Below are positions 2,423 through 63,097 of a stretch of 64,000 bases of DNA, in pieces. The notes under the pieces were generated by a model. It searched no databases. It saw only the letters and a program-made list of their open reading frames with translations, and was not told where the DNA came from. Location of the stretch: sequence record NC_052654.1; one strand, written 5' to 3'. Each line of letters opens with the position of its first letter. The stretch's first letter is position 1. Made by a program: the position numbers and the translations under genes. The stretch is from Escherichia phage vB_EcoM-Ro121c4YLVW.

Positions 2423-2452
2423 ACTATACTACATTTTACTATTTGTTGTCAA
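2423..2452 (-). promoter_or_regulatory. sigma70-like promoter inside the tRNA cluster (TTGACA-N18-TATAGT on minus strand)
   Basis: Consensus -35 with near-consensus -10 read on minus strand, directly upstream of tRNA-Gly. Confidence 0.5.
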
Positions 2453-3383: not shown

Positions 3384-3617
3384 ATACTTATAATCTAACA
3401 TAAAATAATGTTTGTTGTCAATAGTTTTTTAAAACATTTTACCATGAATGGTGACTCCACCAACCCCCGTTCTCCACGAACGGTGCTCTTCGAGCATTTA
3501 TGTCTTCTAATATAACCGTGGCCTTTGTTTATAATGTCTGACATACTTGCCTCATTCTCTGCCACCATGATCAGTAGTGGGTTCAAATCACTTGAGCTAA
3601 TTCATGTTAAAATGTTC

Positions 3618-3769: not shown

Positions 3770-4015
3770 ATAAATGTGGTAACAGAGACGCTGACGATTG
3801 TAGAGAACCGCTACATTCTCTAAGACCAAGCCCAACTTTCAGCGTAAAAGTTCTTGAGCCGAGACTATTCCTTTTCCTCTTTGGTAGCTAACCTCTGAAG
3901 AAGTAGTCTCTAACACTACCGCAGTGCAAGCCCCTCTTAACAAAAGTCAACGACCCTGTTACCACACTTGATGAACGTATCCTAACATATGAAGGATACG
4001 TTTGTCAATAGTTAT

Positions 4016-4272: not shown

Positions 4273-4524
4273 CTAATCTGTTAGTTGTTCGTCCTCTACC
4301 AAGTTTGACACGAGAACGTCTGTTATACATTGATGCTGATAAACCCTTTCGGGACTATCATCAAAAGCCAAACCTGTGCAAATAGAACAGAGGTCTGATT
4401 CCTTGATGACTCCATTTTTATCACGTCTGGAGTGGTTTGTCAAATGCCTATTACAAGCACGGCACCTAAAATAAAAACTATTTTGCATATATCCTTCGAA
4501 CCCCAAATGGGGAGTGATCGGCAT
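4273..4524 (-). CDS. hypothetical Cys-rich (zinc-binding?) protein
   Basis: ORF track; CxxC...CxxC pattern. Confidence 0.3.
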   Translation of the reverse strand: MPITPHLGFEGYMQNSFYFRCRACNRHLTNHSRRDKNGVIKESDLCSICTGLAFDDSPERVYQHQCITDVLVSNLVEDEQLTD

Positions 4525-4561
4525 CTCCTCACTTCTAGTTTAGCACGAAGGATATCTTAAG

Positions 4562-4747
4562 TCAACTAGGAATAATTTTATCCTTTTTGGTTTCATAACC
4601 AGTCCAATCTAAATCCTCCCAGCCTTCATCATCGTCTAACACATTGTCATCGTCATAAGATGCAATGTTATAAATAGAACGTGGATTACAAGACATACAA
4701 TCTTTAATAGGTACATGATGCCATTTGCACGGATTCTCGCTAATCAT
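4562..4747 (-). CDS. hypothetical acidic protein
   Basis: ORF track; SD GGAGGTG 5 nt upstream of ATG. Confidence 0.45.
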   Translation of the reverse strand: MISENPCKWHHVPIKDCMSCNPRSIYNIASYDDDNVLDDDEGWEDLDWTGYETKKDKIIPS

Positions 4748-4772
4748 TGCACACCTCCATTCTTGTTAAGAT

Positions 4773-4977
4773 GTTCCGTACTGTACTTCATACTGATCTA
4801 TAGATCAAGTATTATTTATAATAATTTATTATTTTATTTTTAATTGATAGAAGTTGATCTGTACGTACCAGTTCTGATACACTGTACCTGTTTGTTAGAT
4901 CTAATAATTATTTATTATTAATATTTAATAATTATTAATCTAGTACGGAGTACAGTACTTGAGTACAGAGTACTACA
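4773..4977. repeat. AT-rich divergent intergenic region flanked by GTAC-rich imperfect inverted repeats (GTACTGTAC / GTACAGTAC) with GATC palindromes
   Basis: Direct reading: ccgtactgtacttcatactg at about 4775 and gtacggagtacagtacttgagtacagagtac at about 4945 flank about 150 bp of more than 85% A+T; sits between minus- and plus-strand gene blocks. Confidence 0.5.
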
Positions 4978-5227
4978 TCAACAACCTAAAACCTTAACTC
5001 GCTGCGCTCGTTAATAGATTTCTAGGGTAGCATACTTCGAACACAAAAGTCAAGAGTTTTATTAAAATTATTTTCTGTGTGCAAAAACCTTGCTTAAACA
5101 GGTAGCAATAGTATAGCCTATAACATAAGCTTCATAAGAGGCTCGTAGAGCAAGTTCACTTACTAGGTAAGGTGATTTATCATCTTATATATAAAAAGTG
5201 CGTCAGAGACGCGTTTAGGAGGCTAGA

Positions 5228-5551
5228 ATGAGATTTACAAGACAAGAGGTAGTTGTGCTGGACGAAGCAATGACAATGATCGTCTTTTACTACGAGGATA
5301 TCTTCTGTGCAGCATATCATTTAAATGACATTCAGATCGAATGGCAGCAGATAGCATTTTTGTTGGACAAGAGTACTCATTTGGATGGCTTTGAGTATTT
5401 GGAATGGGATGGTGCAAAGGAAGTTAAAATTGTAGGGTTAAATCACGATCAGATTGTTGACATGCAATGTAAGTTGTGTCATTATCAGTTCTCAAACAAA
5501 GTCAAACTCGAAAGGCAATTGGAGGTGGTTAAAGATGATAGCACTAATTAG
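5228..5551 (+). CDS. hypothetical protein
   Basis: ORF track; SD AGGAGG upstream. Confidence 0.5.
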   Translation: MRFTRQEVVVLDEAMTMIVFYYEDIFCAAYHLNDIQIEWQQIAFLLDKSTHLDGFEYLEWDGAKEVKIVGLNHDQIVDMQCKLCHYQFSNKVKLERQLEVVKDDSTN

Positions 5552-5651
5552 TGAGAATCCAGTCCTGACAACAATTGTTCTGATTTTTGCCATGTGTGTG
5601 GTTCACGATGTTCTGGTAAGTTATTTTGACAACAAAGGAGGTAAGAAATGA
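5535..5651 (+). CDS. small membrane protein (38 aa)
   Basis: Internal Met of ORF 5454..5651 preceded by GGAGGTGG; hydrophobic helix. Confidence 0.35.
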   Translation: MIALISENPVLTTIVLIFAMCVVHDVLVSYFDNKGGKK

Positions 5652-5842
5652 AAGACGTTATTCAAATGGTATTCCGTGTAACTCTAGATGGTATACACGT
5701 TGTTAAAGGCACACAGAACTACACAGAAGCGAAAGAACACTTCTTAGAGTGGATTGATACACTGAAGACACAAGATGTGTCCTACAGCCGTGTTACGCTT
5801 ACTGGCGACCATACCCCAATCATGGAGTACGTAAAGAAATGA
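5648..5842 (+). CDS. hypothetical protein
   Basis: ORF track; SD AAGGAGG; stop/start overlap with neighbours. Confidence 0.5.
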   Translation: MKDVIQMVFRVTLDGIHVVKGTQNYTEAKEHFLEWIDTLKTQDVSYSRVTLTGDHTPIMEYVKK

Positions 5843-24331: not shown

Positions 24332-24647
24332 TATCGAATGGCGTATGTTACAGGGTGCACCATATGATAAATGGAAAGAAATATTTGGAGACGACCCACA
24401 AGTTGAAGACCAGTTCGATGGGGACTTTAATTGGTTTCTCTGCGAAGGTTTGGGCTTGGAAAACATTTCCCCGTGGTACGATGCAGATCCTGAAGATTGT
24501 GTCTTCGGTGTCAAGCTGTGTAGCGGCTGTGGTGCTTGTGCCATAGACCTCACAAGCTTAAATAAAAAAGCGAATGAGATCTATTTTGAACTGCTTAATA
24601 AGTATAATATTGAAACTGAAACATTAGTATCACAAAACGTCTGGTAA
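24321..24647 (+). CDS. hypothetical Cys-containing protein
   Basis: ORF track. Confidence 0.45.
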   Translation: MGIDIEWRMLQGAPYDKWKEIFGDDPQVEDQFDGDFNWFLCEGLGLENISPWYDADPEDCVFGVKLCSGCGACAIDLTSLNKKANEIYFELLNKYNIETETLVSQNVW

Positions 24648-24656
24648 GGAGAACTG

Positions 24657-25649
24657 ATGCGCTATCTGGTAACAGGTGGTCTTGGTTTTATTGGGAGTGC
24701 CGTGGTGCGCTCTCTTTGTCAAGATCCTAATAACGAAGTTTTTGTCGTTGATAAGATGAGCTATGCAGCAGATATTGAGAATGTAGGCGATATCACTCAC
24801 GTTAAACTAAGCATGACAGATTTGGCAAACGAAGCCCAAGTAAAAAGTTTAGTAGTAGAGTGCAATCCCGATTTCATCATTCACTTAGCGGCAGAGAGTC
24901 ATGTGGATAATTCTATCAAGAATCCACGAGTTTTCATCGACTCCAATATTATTGGTACATACAATTTATTGGAAGCTGCAAGGCTCCTCCCAAAGAATAA
25001 ACTGAAGATGTTCGTACACGTCTCCACAGACGAAGTGTACGGCGATATGGCAGACTCTGGCGTTCCCTTTACCGAAGAGACAGCTTATGCCCCTTCAAGC
25101 CCATACAGTGCGTCTAAGGCAGCATCTGACCATCTTGTGAAAGCTTGGCACCGTACCTACGATTTGCCTGTTGTGATAACCAACTGCTCCAATAACTTTG
25201 GACCTTATCAACATCCAGAAAAGCTGATCCCAAAAATCATCACAAGTATTTTGACGAATAAAGAGATTCCGGTGTATGGTAAAGGCGATCAGGTGCGAGA
25301 CTGGCTTTTTGTTGAGGATCATGCGAGAGCTATTCTTCAAGTGGCAACAGGTGGAGAACCAGGCCAAACGTATAACGTTGGAACACGTAATCCCAAAACC
25401 AATATGGAGATCATCTATATGGTTTGTGACTACATGGATGCTGTACATCCAGAAGCAGGAACCTACCCTTCTTCCAACTTGATAACTTTTGTTGAAGATC
25501 GTAAAGGACATGACTTGCGTTATGAAATCAATCCTTCTAAGATAGAGTCTGAACTGGGTTGGAGTGCAAACTCTACATTTGAACAAGATCTCTACTCAAC
25601 GATTGAATGGTACTTAAACAACCCTCAATGGTGGAGTGAGAAGATTTAA
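24657..25649 (+). CDS. rmlB: dTDP-glucose 4,6-dehydratase
   Basis: Rossmann GGLGFIGS, catalytic YxxxK (YSASK), SDR-extended family length. Confidence 0.85.
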
Positions 25650-25657
25650 GGAGGGCT

Positions 25658-26536
25658 ATGAAAGGTATTATTTTGGCTGGAGGAAGTGGAACCCGCCTTC
25701 ATCCGGTAACACGCAGCGTGAGCAAGCAATTGCTCCCTGTGTATGACAAACCCATGATCTACTACCCTTTATCGGTATTGATGTTGGCTGACATTAAGGA
25801 TATCTTAATCATCACCACACCAGGCGATCAGGAAGACTTTGAGTATCTTCTCGGAGATGGGTCTATGTTTGGGATAAAACTCACTTACGCAATCCAATCC
25901 GAGCCACGAGGTCTTGCGGACGCTTTCATCATCGGTAAAGATTTTATCGGAGAAGACTCTGTTGCTCTTATTTTAGGTGACAACCTATTCTTCGGACAAA
26001 GCTTTGGTAAACTACTGATTAACGCCAGTGAGATGGTAGATGTTTGGGGCGGAGCTTGTATCTTCGGGTATTTGGTGAAAGATCCTGAACGATTCGGTGT
26101 GGTTGAATTTGGGAGTAATCGTCAAGCTATTTCTATTGAAGAGAAACCTGAAAATCCTAAATCAGATTACGCTGTCACAGGTTTGTATTTCTATGATAAC
26201 TCTGTTGTTCAACGTGCATTAGAAGTAACCCCTTCCGCGCGTGGAGAACTGGAGATCACAGATATCAATCGCAGCTACCTCGAAGACAGGAAGTTACAAG
26301 TGGAAGTTCTCGGACGAGGATTTACTTGGCTTGACACAGGAACACACGCCAGTCTGATGGAAGCTGGTCAATTCGTGCAGACTATTGAGAACCGGCAAGG
26401 ATTGAAGATTGCGTGCCTGGAAGAAATTGCTTTCAAAAAAGGGTGGATTTCTTTAGAGACTTTGGTGTATCATGGAAACTCACTGAAGAAAACAGAATAC
26501 GGGCAATACCTACTCAAATTAGCGGAGAGAAAATGA
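25658..26536 (+). CDS. rmlA: glucose-1-phosphate thymidylyltransferase
   Basis: N-terminal [16 protein letters not shown] nucleotidyltransferase signature; 292 aa. Confidence 0.85.
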
Positions 26537-27099
26537 AAGTAGAAAAAACAAAAATTGAAGGTGCGGTAATTATCAAACCAGACGTTTATAAAGATGATCG
26601 TGGTTTCTTTTTAGAAACATATAATGAACAAAAATACGAAGATATTATTGGTAGACAAACTTTCGTTCAAGATAACATGTCTAAATCAAACTTCGGTGTT
26701 TTGCGAGGAATGCACTTTCAAACAAATAATCCGCAAGGTAAGCTTGTTCGTTGTGTAAGTGGGGAAGTATTGGATTTCGCTGTAGACCTACGTAAAGATA
26801 GTCCTACTTACGGTGCTTGGGACGGTGTTGTTCTTCGTGCACGACACCATACACAGTTCTGGCTTCCACCTGGTTTGGCACATGGTTTTATAGTGTTGAG
26901 TATGGATGCTATCTTCGAATACAAATGCACAACTCCATACGACCCTTCCAGCGAACAAAGTTTACGTTGGGATGATCCTGATATAGGGATTGATTGGGGC
27001 TTCGATATGATTTTTGACGAAGATTTTAAACCTATCTTATCAACAAAAGATGCAATGGCTAAGTCTTTTCAACAGCTACGTAGCGAGGGTGTATGCTAA
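26533..27099 (+). CDS. rmlC: dTDP-4-dehydrorhamnose 3,5-epimerase
   Basis: Cupin-type RmlC (about 188 aa) beginning [14 protein letters not shown]; ATGA overlap with rmlA. Confidence 0.8.
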
Positions 27100-27935
27100 C
27101 ATATCTGGTATTGGGCGGTAATGGACAACTGGGACAAGCTTTACGTAAAGTGGCTCCTTCAAATGTATCTTTAATTTATCCTAAAGAACGTGTAGATATT
27201 ACAAATTTTGAAGCTGTGCGAAACGCTATTGTTGAAGATTATGTAGATGGTGTTATTAATTGCGCTGCTTATACGGCTGTAGATAAAGCAGAACATGATT
27301 TTGCTACTGCTTTGGCTGTTAATTCCTACGGCCCTGCAAACATTGCAGCAGTGTGCAGTAAACTTAAAATTGATTTTGTGCATATTTCTACAGACTATAT
27401 TTTTAATTACTCTCATCCTATTTTTGAAGATACTACACCTAACCCAATAAACAATTATGGGTATACGAAAGAACTTGGTGAAAAAATGGTGCGAGGAGTT
27501 AACCCAAATGCATATATTATTCGAACAGCCTCGGTATATAGCGAATTTGGAAATAACTTTCTAAAAACCATGTTGTCTCGCTATAATGATGGACAACGTG
27601 ATTTTATTATTGTTGCTGATCAGTTCTCTTGTCCAACATATGCTCCAGATTTAGCAGAAGCTATTTTTGAAGTATTAAAAACAGGTTGGTCAAGGTCTGT
27701 TAAGACTTACCATTTTGCAGGAAGCCATCTTATTTCTTGGGCGGAGTTTGCGGAAAAGATCTTGACACAGATGCCAGAACCTGTTAAGATATCGGCGGTA
27801 TCAGCTTCAACCTATAATGCTCCAGCAGCACGTCCGGTGAAGTCACAATTAGTAACCAGTCACTATCTTACAAAATCAGATTTAAATAAAGGTATTGAAC
27901 GGTCTTTAGCAGTATTACTTAATAAGGAGAGGTAA
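27093..27935 (+). CDS. rmlD: dTDP-4-dehydrorhamnose reductase
   Basis: Rossmann LVLGGNGQLG; completes the B-A-C-D operon. Confidence 0.75.
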   Translation: MLTYLVLGGNGQLGQALRKVAPSNVSLIYPKERVDITNFEAVRNAIVEDYVDGVINCAAYTAVDKAEHDFATALAVNSYGPANIAAVCSKLKIDFVHISTDYIFNYSHPIFEDTTPNPINNYGYTKELGEKMVRGVNPNAYIIRTASVYSEFGNNFLKTMLSRYNDGQRDFIIVADQFSCPTYAPDLAEAIFEVLKTGWSRSVKTYHFAGSHLISWAEFAEKILTQMPEPVKISAVSASTYNAPAARPVKSQLVTSHYLTKSDLNKGIERSLAVLLNKER

Positions 27936-28195
27936 TGGAATTTGTAATTTTTGGTAAACCTAACTGTCAATTTTGCGAAATGTCAAAACAACTATTAACC
28001 ATGCGCAATAAACAGTTTGAATATTTAAGTCTTGACCAAGACTACGATTTAGAATCAATGACTAAAACAGTTGTTGATCTTACCGGAGTTCCTCCACGCA
28101 CATTTCCACAAATTCTGTCTGAAGTGAACGGGGAGGTAACATACGTAGGCGGTTTTACCGAACTGCGTGATCTCATGGCTCAAATTGCGGAGTAA
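27935..28195 (+). CDS. glutaredoxin/NrdH-like thioredoxin-fold protein (CQFC)
   Basis: CxxC after beta-strand near N-terminus; 86 aa. Confidence 0.55.
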   Translation: MEFVIFGKPNCQFCEMSKQLLTMRNKQFEYLSLDQDYDLESMTKTVVDLTGVPPRTFPQILSEVNGEVTYVGGFTELRDLMAQIAE

Positions 28196-41282: not shown

Positions 41283-41312
41283 AGTGGGTGCCTTTTCTAT
41301 TTTAGAGCGTCT
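41283..41312. terminator. bidirectional terminator between convergent gene blocks (GGCACCC-aagt-GGGTGCC flanked by T/A runs)
   Basis: Direct reading. Confidence 0.55.
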
Positions 41313-41337
41313 CTGTTCGATTTAGGTGGGTTCTAGC

Positions 41338-41568
41338 TTACTTGTGTAGTGCTCTCTCGTATAACTCAATGATCAATTCATCCTCTACTGTAATACGCGC
41401 CATTTGATCCGTCTTAAGTATTGTTGGTTGGTAGTGGTGCATTTCACTATTGATACTACAATCCCATTCGTCATAACCTAAATACTCTCCTACATGGACC
41501 TTAACCATAAAGGGAAACGGGTTATCTACCAAAAATGCCATACAACCTTCTTCGATTTTATTTAACAC
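41338..41568 (-). CDS. hypothetical protein
   Basis: ORF track. Confidence 0.4.
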   Translation of the reverse strand: MLNKIEEGCMAFLVDNPFPFMVKVHVGEYLGYDEWDCSINSEMHHYQPTILKTDQMARITVEDELIIELYERALHK

Positions 41569-41596
41569 ACGACCTCCTATTGCTACAGATATGAAA

Positions 41597-41620
41597 AAAC
41601 CCGCCGAAGCGGGTTCTATT
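41597..41620 (-). terminator. intrinsic terminator ACCCGC-TTCG-GCGGGT + TTTTTT (minus strand), flanked by 10-bp direct repeat ctattgctac
   Basis: Direct reading. Confidence 0.5.
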
Positions 41621-41659
41621 GCTACGATAGGATCACTATCCTATAGTATTGTTTCTGTG

Positions 41660-41941
41660 TCAAGCCTTAGCGTAGAAAAACTTCTCATATTCAGATTTTG
41701 TTACGATTGTGGGGCAATCTTTTGTTCCATCCTCGATAACAGGGGCTTCTACCATTCTGGTGTTGAATAAGCAATAAGTTCCACGCATGTAAATACCCAG
41801 TTTTGTTTCTACGATGTGCTCTTTACTTACGCTTGAAAACTTAATCTCACCATCGGAGTCTCTTATAGCAATAAGCGCATGTTCGGGCCAATCTTTTCCT
41901 TTTGCTCCTAAAGCATTATACAATTCTTGAACGAGTTCCAT
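41660..41941 (-). CDS. hypothetical protein
   Basis: ORF track. Confidence 0.4.
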   Translation of the reverse strand: MELVQELYNALGAKGKDWPEHALIAIRDSDGEIKFSSVSKEHIVETKLGIYMRGTYCLFNTRMVEAPVIEDGTKDCPTIVTKSEYEKFFYAKA

Positions 41942-57759: not shown

Positions 57760-59270
57760 ATCTCCTCTCATCGTTAGCCATCTTTCATGGCAATCATCAA
57801 TCACCAACATCATACGATCAATCTTAGGGAATTACAATCGAATTATCATAGGGGATTCCTATCAATTATCCCATATATACCGATTATTTTTGACACCCCA
57901 CTCTTGTATAAAAAGTAACCCAAAATATCTACGGGGAGAGATTATTTCGGGACACCCTGTTTCATAGCAATCATGGCAAGAATATCTAATAGAATCAATA
58001 TGATATGGCAAAAATCATGGCGCATACGTAAGAAGTGCTTAACGCGAATTTTCGGGCCGTCAGGTCCACGCAGCGACAATTCCCAAATATCATGCGAATG
58101 AGAATAATTATCATTCGTATTCAATGACTTATGCAAGGCTCATGCCAACATAGCGACAAGGTGGGCCACTTGATTATAAATCACACAAACACTTATTTAT
58201 CAATGGTTTGGCAACTTCATCATATGACGGAACAATGTCAACTGATCCCGCTCATGACAAGCAGACTATTATTTATATGAGAATGATTATTATTTAAACG
58301 TTTATTAACATATAAACTAAAATAAATCAAGAATTTTCTGATTTTATTTACGTTTAAGAGAAGGTGCTCAACATATCGCTACGCGATAGTATTCGCCCCC
58401 AAAAGATTAGCCTTTATTTTCTTGTATGTTTATACACTGCGTGTACATCTATGTGCACACTATGCAACCTGTCGCTATTCGCTCATGTTGCTACGTGCAA
58501 TTATTCATCTTGCTAATGATTTCATATTGTAACTATTACAATGACTATTGTTATTGCGCTAATGTTATGATCTTGGTAATTACATATAATGCTAATAATA
58601 AGCCAGCGCAATAAGTGTAAGCGTCATTACGCTTGCAATTATTGCAAGCTACGCAGTAACAAGAAATAACCGTCACCGATGGTTATGATTGTTGGGGTGT
58701 AGTTGGCTTATTATTAGCTCGCTATGTGTCCGGCATAGCGTGCTAATGATGACTCTGTGAATGATTCGTTTTGTAATGATTTCATTCAGGCACTATTTTG
58801 CTAATAGTTATTATTTTAATGGTTTCGTTTGTTATTGTTCGTTAGTTGGTTGTTTTGTCGTGTTATCGTTATCTTGCTTAGTATTCATCATGGTTTGATT
58901 GTTTGTCATTATCAATCATCTTGCTATTATTCCTTTGATTATGATTAGTTTGCTTATTGTTTTAGGTTGTTGGTTGGTTAGTTGTTGCGAACTATTATCA
59001 ACATTATAGTTATGCACTTATATTGCATAGATAAACATGGATAGATGATAATGGTTATCATTGCACCAGAAAGGAGGTAAAAGGGTGTTTTTGATGGTTT
59101 GTTGTTGGTTGTTGATCGATTTTAACCGCTTTAAATGGCTCTCTAACAGCCTGTTACCCTGGGAGGTATGGTTATTCATTTAATGGTTGATTAGCTTGAT
59201 ACCACTATTTATTCAGTTTTGTTCTGTGTCGGTTTTCCATAGGCGGAATCTATCAACATTGTTCGGGCAA
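57760..59270. repeat. 1.5-kb non-coding, repeat-rich region (GCTAAT-type short direct repeats, palindromes, G+T-skewed tract)
   Basis: No credible ORF; repeated gctaatg / gtaatgatttcat / ttgttattg motifs; palindromes aagcgtcattacgctt and cttgcaattattgcaag; long GT-rich tract 58800-59000. Confidence 0.5.
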
Positions 59271-59297
59271 AAAGAAAGGGCGCTTGGTGCGCCCCTT
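59271..59297 (-). terminator. intrinsic terminator GGGCGC-ttggt-GCGCCC + TTTCTTT (minus strand)
   Basis: Direct reading. Confidence 0.55.
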
Positions 59298-59310
59298 GTT
59301 TTGTTGTCGA

Positions 59311-63049: not shown

Positions 63050-63097
63050 TCATTATATTACCCTTTAATACAGGCGGGATTAATCCCGCCTTGTTGA

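What the first reader, a model, noticed from the sequence alone, without database searches (positions are those of the whole stretch)
4773..4977. AT-rich divergent control region with GTAC-rich inverted repeats and GATC palindromes
Between the last minus-strand gene (stop at 4562, start 4747) and the first plus-strand gene (5228) lies about 480 bp of non-coding DNA. Its core (4810-4940) is more than 85% A+T and is flanked by imperfect inverted repeats built from GTACTGTAC / GTACAGTAC units, with embedded gatctatagatc and agatct palindromes. The geometry (inverted repeats bracketing an easily melted AT core at a divergence point) resembles a replication origin or a bidirectional promoter/operator. 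A MotA-box-like TTGCTTAAA with TAGTAT 12 nt downstream lies at about 5090-5120.
Basis: seen in the sequence. Interest (0 to 1): 0.45.

Follow-up and report, generated by a model that had tools for sequence, protein, structure and literature searches.

The report
Phage early divergent promoter region
This is the main non-coding control region of a phAPEC8-like E. coli phage, where early genes start in both directions from several host-type promoters around very A+T-rich DNA; its striking GTAC repeats are real, but they are a recent, changeable add-on rather than the conserved core.

Summary
The window is a Phapecoctavirus (100% identical to ESCO13). The 480-nt gap at 4748-5227 separates diverging gene blocks. 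GTAC is depleted in the window (64 seen, 225 expected), yet 10 copies lie in 4778-4973 (P about 1e-14). The two A+T blocks (4806-4846, 4903-4940) are the most A+T-rich 40-mers in 64 kb. Two details need correcting: the A+T "core" is bipartite and 82% A+T, not above 85%, and the MotA-like box is no commoner than chance and is not conserved.

Five annotated clades of Stephanstirmvirinae share four syntenic sigma-70-like promoters (PL1, PR1, PL3, PR2), each with conserved hexamers and free spacers. PL1 and PR1 fire back to back from A+T block 1. PL3's hexamers and an adjacent CTCGCTnCGCTCG box are also invariant in further IMG/VR and metagenome lineages. A+T block 2 plus the right GTAC cluster is a 76-nt palindrome (z = -5) inserted only in the phAPEC8 clade. 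Phage KKP 3954 has lost 7 of the 10 GTACs while the -10 hexamers persist.

Best reading: a multi-promoter early control region (confidence 0.55). An origin is not excluded, because GC skew is confounded with gene direction and only one DnaA box is present. The genome terminus probably lies elsewhere, near 58 kb. Interest is modest.

The parts
4562..4747 (-). First leftward gene: a 61-aa protein of unknown function (phrog_26411). Its RBS GGAGG lies just upstream.
4780..4808 (-). PL1, a leftward sigma-70-like promoter: TTGATC (4808-4803), 17-nt spacer, TACAGT (4785-4780). Predicted start near 4773. The left GTACTGTAC unit overlaps its -10 and the 14-nt GATC palindrome fills its -35 and spacer.
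   Evidence: A syntenic site lies directly left of the A+T block in phiWec188, phi92, FKP3 and Tr1 and, by eye, in L034.
4778..4786 (.). Left GTAC pair, GTACTGTAC.
4794..4807 (.). Perfect 14-nt palindrome TGATCTATAGATCA with two GATC sites. It is broken in phAPEC8, KKP 3954, UP17 and nieznany.
4806..4846 (.). A+T block 1 (93% A+T), shared upstream region of PL1 and PR1. UP-element-like, and an easily melted spacer. Present at the same place in all genera, with unrelated sequence.
4854..4883 (+). PR1, a rightward promoter with an extended -10: TTGATC (4854-4859), 18-nt spacer, TG (4875-4876), TACACT (4878-4883). Predicted start near 4890. GTACGTAC (4861-4868) lies in its spacer.
   Evidence: TGATACAyT or TGTTAGTAT is conserved across lineages.
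4881..4956 (.). 76-nt imperfect palindrome centred at 4919/4920: ACTGTAC..TAGATCTAATAAT...|...ATTATTAATCTA..GTACAGT. It encloses A+T block 2 (4903-4940, 97% A+T).
   Evidence: DNA fold -12.5 kcal/mol, z = -5.1. RNA fold -23.3 kcal/mol, z = -5.05. Repeats I2 and D1.
4943..4973 (.). Right GTAC cluster of five GTAC sites, built from GAGTACAG-type repeats. Together with A+T block 2 it is an insertion specific to the phAPEC8 clade.
   Evidence: A 13-nt repeat unit is deleted in dw-ec.
4952..4981 (-). PL2, a weak candidate leftward promoter: TTGATG, 18-nt spacer, TACTGT. It lies inside the clade-specific insertion and is disrupted in dw-ec.
4998..5010 (.). Invariant box CTCGCTGCGCTCG, function unknown. 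It lies roughly 7-20 nt downstream of the predicted PL3 start.
   Evidence: Present in 16 of 16 IMG/VR and metagenome loci and in phi92, Tr1, FKP3 and phiWec188. 14-19 nt are identical to pMB1/ColE1.
5024..5053 (-). PL3, a leftward promoter: TTGACT (5053-5048), 18-nt spacer, TG, TACCCT (5029-5024). Predicted start near 5017. It is convergent with PR1.
   Evidence: GTCAA and TAGGGTA are invariant with a free spacer of 17-18 nt in 12 of 12 lineages.
5155..5183 (+). PR2, the proximal rightward promoter: TTCACT, 17-nt spacer, TATCAT. A small hairpin (5200-5212), the RBS AGGAGG and the ATG at 5228 follow.
   Evidence: GGTGATTTATCATC is conserved in phiWec and related in FKP3 and Tr1.
5091..5114 (+). 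MotA-box-like TGCTTAA, 11 nt, TAGTAT. Judged a chance match.
5228..5551 (+). First rightward early gene: a 107-aa protein of unknown function (phrog_14390), conserved across Stephanstirmvirinae.

Best explanation
The 480-nt gap is the principal divergent early control region of the phage. It is read by host sigma-70 RNA polymerase.

Four conserved promoter-like sites.
- PL1 and PR1 fire back to back from either side of A+T block 1. That block lies where an UP element would lie for both (about -40 to -60) and is also an easily melted spacer.
- PL3 (leftward, distal) and PR2 (rightward, proximal) lie further right.
- Each gene block therefore has a proximal and a distal promoter, and the two distal ones (PR1 and PL3) face each other.

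The eye-catching part. A+T block 2 plus the right GTAC cluster form a 76-nt palindrome together with ACTGTAC..AGATCT. This is an insertion specific to the phAPEC8 clade, placed in the interval between the convergent promoters. It is transcribed from both sides and would fold into a long A/U-rich hairpin. The GTAC units may modulate transcription, as a site for an unknown factor or as an RNA or DNA structure, but GTAC itself is not needed for viability.

Shown: the sequence features, their statistics, synteny and hexamer conservation across clades, the clade restriction of the insertion, and its lability.

Inferred: promoter activity, the transcription start sites, the UP-element role, and any role of the palindrome.
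For: Context. The window is ESCO13-like Phapecoctavirus. Small early genes, RNA ligase, polynucleotide kinase (PNK) and DNA ligase read rightward; tRNAs and terminase read leftward.

Promoters. The same mechanical sigma-70 scan, run on the intergenic region of five clades, finds four sites at syntenic places in every clade: PL1 directly left of the A+T block, PR1 directly right of it (with a TG extension in 4 of 5 clades), PL3 with TACCCT, and PR2 in three of the five (window, FKP3, Tr1). In a 12-lineage alignment, GTCAA and TAGGGTA of PL3 are invariant while the 17-18-nt spacer is free. The extended -10 of PR1 (TGATAC/TGTTAG) is kept. This is the pattern expected of promoters.

A+T blocks. 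Blocks 1 and 2 are the most A+T-rich 40-mers of the 64 kb.

Clade-specific insertion. The ancestral spacing AGATCT-N27-CTCGC grows by 31 nt in phiWec and by 69 nt in this clade. The element is single-copy in 63 phage records of the phAPEC8 clade and absent from E. coli genomes. The palindrome has z = -5.

Lability of GTAC. KKP 3954 has lost 7 of 10 GTAC sites in the cluster, yet its PL1 -10 becomes TACAAT and its PR1 -10 is unchanged. dw-ec deletes one repeat unit.
Against: - In this phage PL1, PR1 and PL3 each match only 8 of 12 consensus positions. The built-in scan does not list them, and its hit count in the region is not above shuffles.
- No transcript-start data exist for any member of the subfamily, as far as the library searches showed.
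- Much stronger consensus promoters exist nearby in the tRNA cluster, so these four need not be the main early promoters.
- Ten GTAC sites persist in a non-coding stretch of a genome that otherwise avoids GTAC. Promoter function alone does not explain this.
Confidence: 0.55

Rival explanations
1. Replication origin. The A+T blocks act as DNA-unwinding elements opened by transcription. Block 1 sits between divergent promoters, where negative supercoiling accumulates. Block 2 sits 13-50 nt downstream of the PR1 start, as the unwinding element does in the phage T4 origins oriF and oriG. An R-loop or open complex would then be used by the phage replisome. This could coexist with promoter function.
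For: The two lowest-stability 40-mers of the 64 kb lie here. The cumulative GC-skew minimum lies here. The geometry is a promoter followed by an A+T palindrome. There is one DnaA-box match at 5078-5086. The invariant box next door shares 14-19 nt with the ColE1/pMB1 segment downstream of ori; from memory only, that segment lies in the primosome assembly site ssiA. The shared sequence is on the strand that PL3 transcription would displace.
Against: GC skew flips at both gene-direction switches (4.9 and 41.4 kb), so it tracks transcription. The rV5 authors reached the same conclusion for their phage (PMC3606486). No conserved iterons were found. The GTAC repeats and A+T block 2 are absent from sister clades. 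The single DnaA box is at about chance frequency and is mutated in anhysbys. The ColE1 match is short and was found post hoc.
Confidence: 0.15
2. Operator array. The GTAC units (consensus GTACAG: three point leftward on the left and centre, two point rightward on the right) bind a phage or host protein. That protein bridges the left and right clusters about 170 bp apart, loops out PR1, and shuts off or times early transcription.
For: Extreme local enrichment in a GTAC-avoiding genome. Dyad arrangement of the GTACAG orientations. Flexible A+T tracts lie between the clusters. Sister clades carry a different operator-like 17-mer, AGACnACTnAGTnGTCT, in the same interval, which suggests lineage-specific regulators.
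Against: The spacing between GTAC units is irregular (4, 5, 7 and 8 nt). KKP 3954 has lost 7 of 10 sites without compensation. No DNA-binding domain was found in the ten flanking proteins. No binding partner is known.
Confidence: 0.12
3. RNA-level element. The palindrome is transcribed from PR1 and from PL3 (and PL2). It forms a roughly 30-bp A/U-rich hairpin, or sense-antisense duplexes, that serve as an RNase III processing site or an antisense control of the distal transcripts.
For: RNA fold -23.3 kcal/mol, z = -5.05. The element lies between convergent conserved promoters whose -10 elements are 103-111 nt apart in the other clades and 140 nt apart here.
Against: The outer GTAC stem is not maintained in KKP 3954. 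No Rfam family matches. There is no U-tract for termination. The structure is equally a DNA palindrome.
Confidence: 0.1
4. Neutral by-product. The GTAC cluster and A+T block 2 arose by local duplication and slippage of a GTAC-containing -10 segment (TACAGTAC) and of A+T tracts. They persist only because the clade is young, and have no function of their own.
For: By eye, the right cluster matches the inverted copy of the PL1 core at about 19 of 25 positions. It contains 20-nt and 13-nt repeat units (repeat D4) that are gained or lost between isolates. 42 of 63 records are at least 99% identical here, so there has been little time to purge the sites. Where time or selection has acted (KKP 3954), the sites are lost.
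Against: Non-coding GTACs should be the easiest to lose in a genome holding GTAC at 0.28 of expectation, yet more than 55 records keep 8-10 of them. The palindromic symmetry is stronger than random duplication would be expected to leave (z = -5).
Confidence: 0.15
5. Physical genome end: a direct terminal repeat boundary or a pac site.
For: It is a large non-coding region. The nieznany record is broken inside it. Members of the subfamily are reported to have short direct terminal repeats (PMC12210895, PMC12695924).
Against: The terminal repeat that PhageTerm assigned to BME3 lies in a different, larger non-coding region, and the homologue of that region is at 57.8-59.3 kb of this window. The phiWec records, which their authors describe as terminating with direct terminal repeats, carry this locus internally. 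The nieznany break is an overlap with an internal deletion, typical of an assembly problem in very A+T-rich DNA.
Confidence: 0.03

Closest known systems
[quoted passage not shown]
   Same: Two outward-facing -35/-10 pairs about 45 nt apart across a block of more than 90% A+T. They sit at the point where the gene blocks diverge, and use host-type hexamers.
   Different: The hexamers here are only 8 of 12 matches. There are two further conserved promoters (PL3, PR2), which give a face-to-face pair, and a clade-specific palindrome lies between them. The rV5 locus itself is short, sits in a different context, and is not evidently homologous.
Phage T4 origins oriF (uvsY) and oriG (gene 34): a middle-mode promoter plus a downstream DNA-unwinding element (from general knowledge)
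   Same: A promoter (PR1) is followed within about 15 nt by a roughly 40-nt block of more than 95% A+T.
   Different: There is no credible MotA box. The downstream A+T block is absent from sister clades. No replication data exist.
ColE1/pMB1 ori region: convergent RNA II and RNA I promoters, and the primosome assembly site ssiA
   Same: Convergent promoters about 100 nt apart. The sequence ACTCGCTGCGCTCG(G) is identical to a pMB1 segment downstream of ori.
   Different: Only 14-19 nt are shared. The surrounding pMB1 hairpin partner (CGAGCG) is missing. The box lies roughly 7-20 nt downstream of the predicted PL3 start rather than hundreds of nt downstream. The position of ssiA is recalled from memory, not verified here.
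Face-to-face lytic/lysogenic promoters of P2- and 186-type phages (from general knowledge)
   Same: Convergent promoters whose transcripts overlap, with palindromic operator-like sequences in between.
   Different: This is a virulent myovirus with no repressor or integrase context. No regulator has been identified.

Membership tests
Bacterial sigma-70 promoter | -35 and -10 hexamers 16-18 nt apart, with T1, A2 and T6 in the -10 | tested here: met
   PL1, PR1 and PL3 score 8 of 12 and PR2 scores 9 of 12. PR1 and PL3 have a TG extension. These scores are below the threshold of the built-in scan, except for PR2.
Bacterial sigma-70 promoter | Hexamers conserved and spacer sequence free among relatives | tested here: met
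   Syntenic sites in five clades. GTCAA and TAGGGTA are invariant in 12 of 12 lineages with variable 17-18-nt spacers.
Bacterial sigma-70 promoter | Transcription starts 6-8 nt downstream of the -10 | not testable with these tools
   No transcript-start data were found for this subfamily.
UP element | A+T-rich tract at about -40 to -60 of the promoter | tested here: met
   4806-4846 is 93% A+T and lies directly upstream of both -35 hexamers. Binding of the RNA polymerase alpha-subunit C-terminal domain was not tested.
Theta-type replication origin | DNA-unwinding element | tested here: met
   The two most A+T-rich 40-mers of the window lie here.
Theta-type replication origin | Clustered initiator sites (DnaA boxes or conserved iterons) | tested here: not met
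   One TTWTNCACA match at 5078-5086, mutated in anhysbys. The GTAC repeats are not conserved outside the clade and are lost in KKP 3954.
Theta-type replication origin | Strand-compositional switch independent of transcription | tested here: inconclusive
   The skew minimum is here, but skew flips at every switch in gene direction.
Theta-type replication origin | Replication initiates here | not testable with these tools
   Needs marker-frequency analysis or 2D gels.
T4-type MotA-dependent middle promoter | MotA box TGCTTtA 11-13 nt upstream of TAnnnT, recurring before middle genes | tested here: not met
   2 matches in 64 kb against 3.4 expected. Not conserved in phiWec.
T4-type MotA-dependent middle promoter | The phage encodes MotA and AsiA | not tested
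   Ten flanking proteins have no Pfam match. The rest of the genome was not scanned.
PriA primosome assembly site (ColE1 ssiA) | Sequence and hairpin of a known n'-pas site | tested here: inconclusive
   A 14-19-nt identity that exceeds 300 shuffles for the window and for phi92. There is no extended similarity and the complementary arm is absent.
Intrinsic terminator | G+C-rich stem followed by a U-run | tested here: not met
   The palindrome stem is A/T-rich with no T-run. The scan finds only the small hairpin at 5200-5212 on the minus strand.
Genome terminus / direct terminal repeat | Homology with, or position at, a mapped terminal repeat of relatives | tested here: not met
   The BME3 terminal-repeat region is homologous to window 57.8-59.3 kb, not to this locus.
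Dam/SeqA GATC cluster | Dense, conserved GATC sites | tested here: inconclusive
   4 GATC in 216 nt, a level reached by 1.3% of windows. Relatives also carry several AGATCT sites, but the GATC at 4795 is lost in three or more isolates.

The most novel reading that the evidence does not exclude
The conserved core (PR1 facing PL3, plus the invariant CTCGCTnCGCTCG box on the strand displaced by PL3 transcription) is a transcription-primed replication origin of Stephanstirmvirinae. It would resemble ColE1 in logic: a primer transcript, an antisense transcript, and a primosome-loading signal. On this reading, the phAPEC8 clade has added an A+T palindrome with a GTAC array as an unwinding or initiator-binding module. 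That array is kept against genome-wide counter-selection of GTAC because it is functional.
Probability: 0.08. Interest if true: 0.6.

Novelty: new member of a known kind. Interest (0 to 1): 0.3.

Why it matters
phAPEC8-like and phi92-like phages are widely isolated and used as therapy candidates, yet nothing is known about how their early transcription or replication starts.

This analysis gives a concrete, testable map: four predicted start sites, one invariant 13-nt box, and one clade-specific palindrome. It also separates the conserved core from the eye-catching GTAC decoration.

If the promoters are confirmed, the region offers compact bidirectional early promoters for phage engineering.

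The contrast between a GTAC-avoiding genome and this GTAC cluster is also a handle on restriction pressure in these phages.

Tried and rejected
- Rfam scan of 4400-5400 at E up to 10: only noise.
- Pfam on ten flanking proteins found nothing, and PHROGs returned only families of unknown function, so no regulator candidate emerged.
- MotA-box reading: chance frequency and not conserved.
- IHF and Fis consensus: no exact site. DnaA: a single box.
- Terminus or terminal-repeat reading: the homologue of the BME3 terminal-repeat region lies at 58 kb.
- Mobile-element reading of the palindrome: single copy per genome, restricted to the clade, absent from E. coli genomes.
- rV5 gene 10/11 bidirectional promoter region: short, in a different context, not evidently homologous.
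- BI-EHEC as evidence that GTAC is dispensable: rejected. The record is a Nanopore-only assembly in which 24 of 49 GTAC sites across about 49 kb read GTAT or ATAC with a 22:2 strand bias, and 7 of the 18 coding changes are non-synonymous. This is probably a base-calling artefact at a modified motif. KKP 3954 is the better witness: its changes are symmetric and mostly synonymous.
- ColE1 primosome-site lead: the sequence identity was verified, but only 14-19 nt are shared, and the site coordinates could not be confirmed in the library.
- IMG/VR and metagenome scans added lineages but no further GTAC clusters.

Full report
IDENTITY AND CONTEXT

The window is a Phapecoctavirus (Stephanstirmvirinae). 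Positions 4300-5700 are 100% identical to Escherichia phage ESCO13, and 61 of 69 matching phage records cover at least 80% of that query; all but eight of the 69 match at 95% identity or more.

Annotation of ESCO13 and nepoznato shows what lies on each side:
- Left of 4747, on the minus strand: a 61-aa ORF, two more small ORFs, ten tRNA genes and, further on, the terminase.
- Right of 5228, on the plus strand: a long run of small early ORFs, then RNA ligase, polynucleotide kinase and DNA ligase.

The 480 nt between them carry no annotated gene. Three Danish records annotate an uninterpreted 55-nt "repeat_region" inside the gap. The ten flanking proteins have no Pfam match and fall only in PHROG families of unknown function.

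CHECK OF THE OBSERVATION

- GTAC is strongly avoided in the window: 64 observed against 225 expected. CTAG, GGCC and CCGG are similarly low. Yet ten GTAC sites lie in 4778-4973. At the background rate the Poisson probability is about 1e-14.
- The hexamer GTACAG accounts for five of the ten sites. Three point leftward (4781, 4859, 4882) and two point rightward (4950, 4963).
- The A+T-rich "core" is really two blocks: 4806-4846 at 93% A+T and 4903-4940 at 97%. A 56-nt centre at 62.5% separates them, so 4810-4940 overall is 82% A+T.
- These two blocks are the two most A+T-rich 40-mers in the 64 kb.
- TGATCTATAGATCA (4794-4807) is a perfect 14-nt palindrome.
- Positions 4881-4956 form a 76-nt imperfect palindrome centred on 4919/4920. 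As DNA it folds at -12.5 kcal/mol (z = -5.1, 0 of 200 shuffles as good). As RNA it folds at -23.3 kcal/mol (z = -5.05).
- The MotA-like TGCTTAA-N11-TAGTAT at 5091-5114 is real as sequence, but the pattern occurs twice in the window against 3.4 expected. It is not conserved in the nearest sister clade.

COMPARISON WITH RELATIVES

I located the homologous divergence point in several relatives through the 107-aa first rightward protein and through IMG/VR and metagenome scans. The relatives were the phiWec179/188/190 phages, phi92, Klebsiella phage FKP3 and Citrobacter phage Tr1.

One mechanical sigma-70 scan was applied to the five annotated clades. It finds the following sites at syntenic positions in each:
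- PL1, leftward, directly left of the A+T block. The window has TTGATC-17-TACAGT; the others have TTGACT or TTGACC with TAGAGT, TACACT or TAGTAT.
- PR1, rightward, directly right of the block. The window has TTGATC-18-TACACT preceded by TG; the others have TTGTTA, TTGATT, TTGTAA or TTGATC with TAGTAT, TATAGT or TACTAT.
- PL3, leftward, TTGAC(A/T)-17/18-TACCCT preceded by TG.
- PR2, rightward and proximal (TTCACT-17-TATCAT in the window), found in three of the five clades (window, FKP3, Tr1).

In a 12-lineage alignment, GTCAA and TAGGGTA of PL3 are invariant while the spacer between them varies freely. The extended -10 of PR1 is kept. Conserved hexamers at a fixed distance with unconstrained spacers are what promoters look like, so I take these four as probable promoters. 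In this phage, however, PL1, PR1 and PL3 each match only 8 of 12 consensus positions (PR2 matches 9), and the built-in scan does not rank PL1, PR1 or PL3.

An A+T block occupies the same place in the five annotated clades and most added lineages, weaker (about 78-83% A+T) in several FKP3-like metagenome lineages, and its sequence is unrelated between clades. That fits a compositional role, either as UP elements or as an easily melted spacer.

WHAT IS SPECIFIC TO THIS CLADE

In phi92, Tr1 and the L034-type lineages, the conserved AGATCT motif downstream of PR1 lies 27 nt from an invariant box, CTCGCTnCGCTCG. In phiWec the distance is 58 nt, and in this window it is 96 nt.

The extra DNA in the window is A+T block 2 plus the right GTAC cluster, which is the right two-thirds of the palindrome. 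A GTAC cluster is found only in phAPEC8-clade loci. The element is single-copy in 63 phage records and absent from E. coli genomes.

Within the clade the element is labile:
- dw-ec lacks one 13-nt repeat unit.
- BI-EHEC duplicates 10 nt of block 1.
- Three phages duplicate AAACCTT near 4990.
- KKP 3954 has lost 7 of the 10 GTAC sites.

In KKP 3954, GTAC is also being lost genome-wide. Of 37 sites outside the cluster, 14 have changed, against a background divergence of about 2% per position, and 9 of 13 coding changes are synonymous. This looks like real counter-selection. The -10 hexamers survive it: TACAGT becomes TACAAT, and TACACT is unchanged.

BI-EHEC appears even more extreme, but its record is a Nanopore-only assembly (PMC8686590). 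It shows a 22:2 strand bias between GTAT and ATAC, and 7 of its 18 coding changes are non-synonymous. I treat it as a probable base-calling artefact at a modified motif and do not use it as evidence.

MECHANISM

The best-supported reading is a multi-promoter early control region read by host RNA polymerase.
- PL1 and PR1 fire back to back from block 1.
- PL3 and PR2 add a distal leftward and a proximal rightward start.
- PR1 and PL3 therefore face each other, with their -10 elements 103-111 nt apart in most lineages and 140 nt apart here.
- The clade-specific palindrome sits in this doubly transcribed interval.

What the palindrome does is not settled. It could be a binding array, an RNA hairpin such as an RNase III site, a DNA-unwinding element, or nothing at all. 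I rate each of these at 0.10-0.15. The persistence of ten GTAC sites in a GTAC-avoiding genome argues for some constraint. Their loss in KKP 3954 and their absence from sister clades argue that GTAC itself is dispensable.

ORIGIN HYPOTHESIS

This is not excluded, and it is compatible with the promoter reading.

In favour:
- The extreme A+T blocks.
- A block lying between divergent promoters.
- A promoter followed by a second A+T block.
- The GC-skew minimum.

Against:
- GC skew follows gene direction. It is positive over the plus-strand genes (5-41 kb) and negative elsewhere, and it flips at both switches. The rV5 authors drew the same conclusion for their phage.
- There is one DnaA-box match, and it is mutated in anhysbys.
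- No exact IHF or Fis site and no conserved iterons were found.

A lead I could not close concerns the invariant box ACTCGCTGCGCTCG(G). It is identical to a segment of pMB1/ColE1 just downstream of ori. I verified the plasmid sequence and the match. From memory only, that segment lies in the primosome assembly site ssiA. ColE1 ssiA is described in PMC3167613 without coordinates. Only 14-19 nt are shared, so this remains a hypothesis.

GENOME TERMINUS

A short direct terminal repeat was determined with PhageTerm for BME3, and the phiWec authors state that subfamily genomes terminate with such repeats.

The BME3 repeat lies in a large non-coding region. Its homologue is at 57.8-59.3 kb of this window. 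The phiWec records carry the present locus internally. The break of the nieznany record inside the element is an end overlap in which one copy lacks 4817-4883. An assembly problem in very A+T-rich DNA is the most likely cause.

VERDICT

- the bidirectional promoter is supported by comparison;
- the origin is untested;
- the MotA box is not supported.

The region is an uncharacterised but ordinary kind of element: a phage early divergent promoter region carrying a lineage-specific palindromic insertion. The most conserved and least explained piece is the CTCGCTnCGCTCG box with PL3, and it lies just outside the coordinates given in the finding.

Noticed in passing
window 57800-59300: A 1.5-kb ORF-free region, 68-79% similar to the non-coding region of Justusliebigvirus BME3 that holds its PhageTerm-determined direct terminal repeat. 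It contains Fur-box-like sequences (GATAATGGTTATCATT, GAGAATGATTATTATT) and some of the most stable hairpins of the window (58601-58790). It is the probable genome terminus or packaging region.
   Followed up: partly
window 4998-5029 (also L011 2300-2334, L014 2204-2238 and others): CTCGCTnCGCTCG, followed 26-29 nt later (start to start) by AGGGTA, is present in all 16 related IMG/VR and metagenome loci and in phi92, Tr1, FKP3 and phiWec188. It is the most conserved non-coding element of the region. 14-19 nt are identical to a pMB1/ColE1 segment downstream of ori.
   Followed up: partly
whole window: GTAC, CTAG, GGCC and CCGG each occur at about 0.3 of the mononucleotide expectation. This is consistent with restriction avoidance in a phage group reported to be very sensitive to restriction-modification systems (PMC8594841).
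   Followed up: partly
L023 (BI-EHEC OL505078.1 9500-59400): In this Nanopore-only assembly, 24 of the 49 GTAC sites shared with the window read GTAT (22) or ATAC (2). The changes are strand-biased and 7 of the 18 coding changes are non-synonymous. This suggests systematic base-calling errors at a modified GTAC motif, or a strand-specific mutational process.
   Followed up: partly
L003/L004 (nieznany MN850598.1 record ends): The two ends of the record overlap inside the element, and one copy lacks window 4817-4883 (the right part of A+T block 1 plus PR1). This is either an assembly artefact or a deletion variant in the phage stock.
   Followed up: partly
window 2423-2452, 3392-3421, 3979-4008, 4537-4565 (minus strand): Near-consensus promoters of the type TTGACA, about 14-15 nt, TGTTAGATT (extended -10) lie inside and next to the tRNA cluster. 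They match the consensus better than the promoters in the finding.
   Followed up: no
L011 about 2255-2271, L014 about 2158-2174, L034 about 1173-1190: A 17-nt operator-like palindrome, AGACnACTnAGTnGTCT, lies between PR1 and the AGATCT motif in phi92, Tr1 and several metagenome lineages. It is missing in the window's clade, where the GTAC and A+T palindrome lies instead.
   Followed up: no
window 63072-63091: A perfect 20-nt palindrome, AGGCGGGATTAATCCCGCCT, the longest perfect palindrome in the window. It is terminator-like.
   Followed up: no
window about 24600-28000 (by homology with L024): KKP 3954 annotates dTDP-rhamnose pathway genes here (rmlA/B/C/D-like). Further along it annotates PhoH-like, HslV-like and Sir2-like genes.
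   Followed up: no
window about 41300-41700: A second switch in gene direction (plus to minus), which coincides with the cumulative GC-skew maximum.
   Followed up: no
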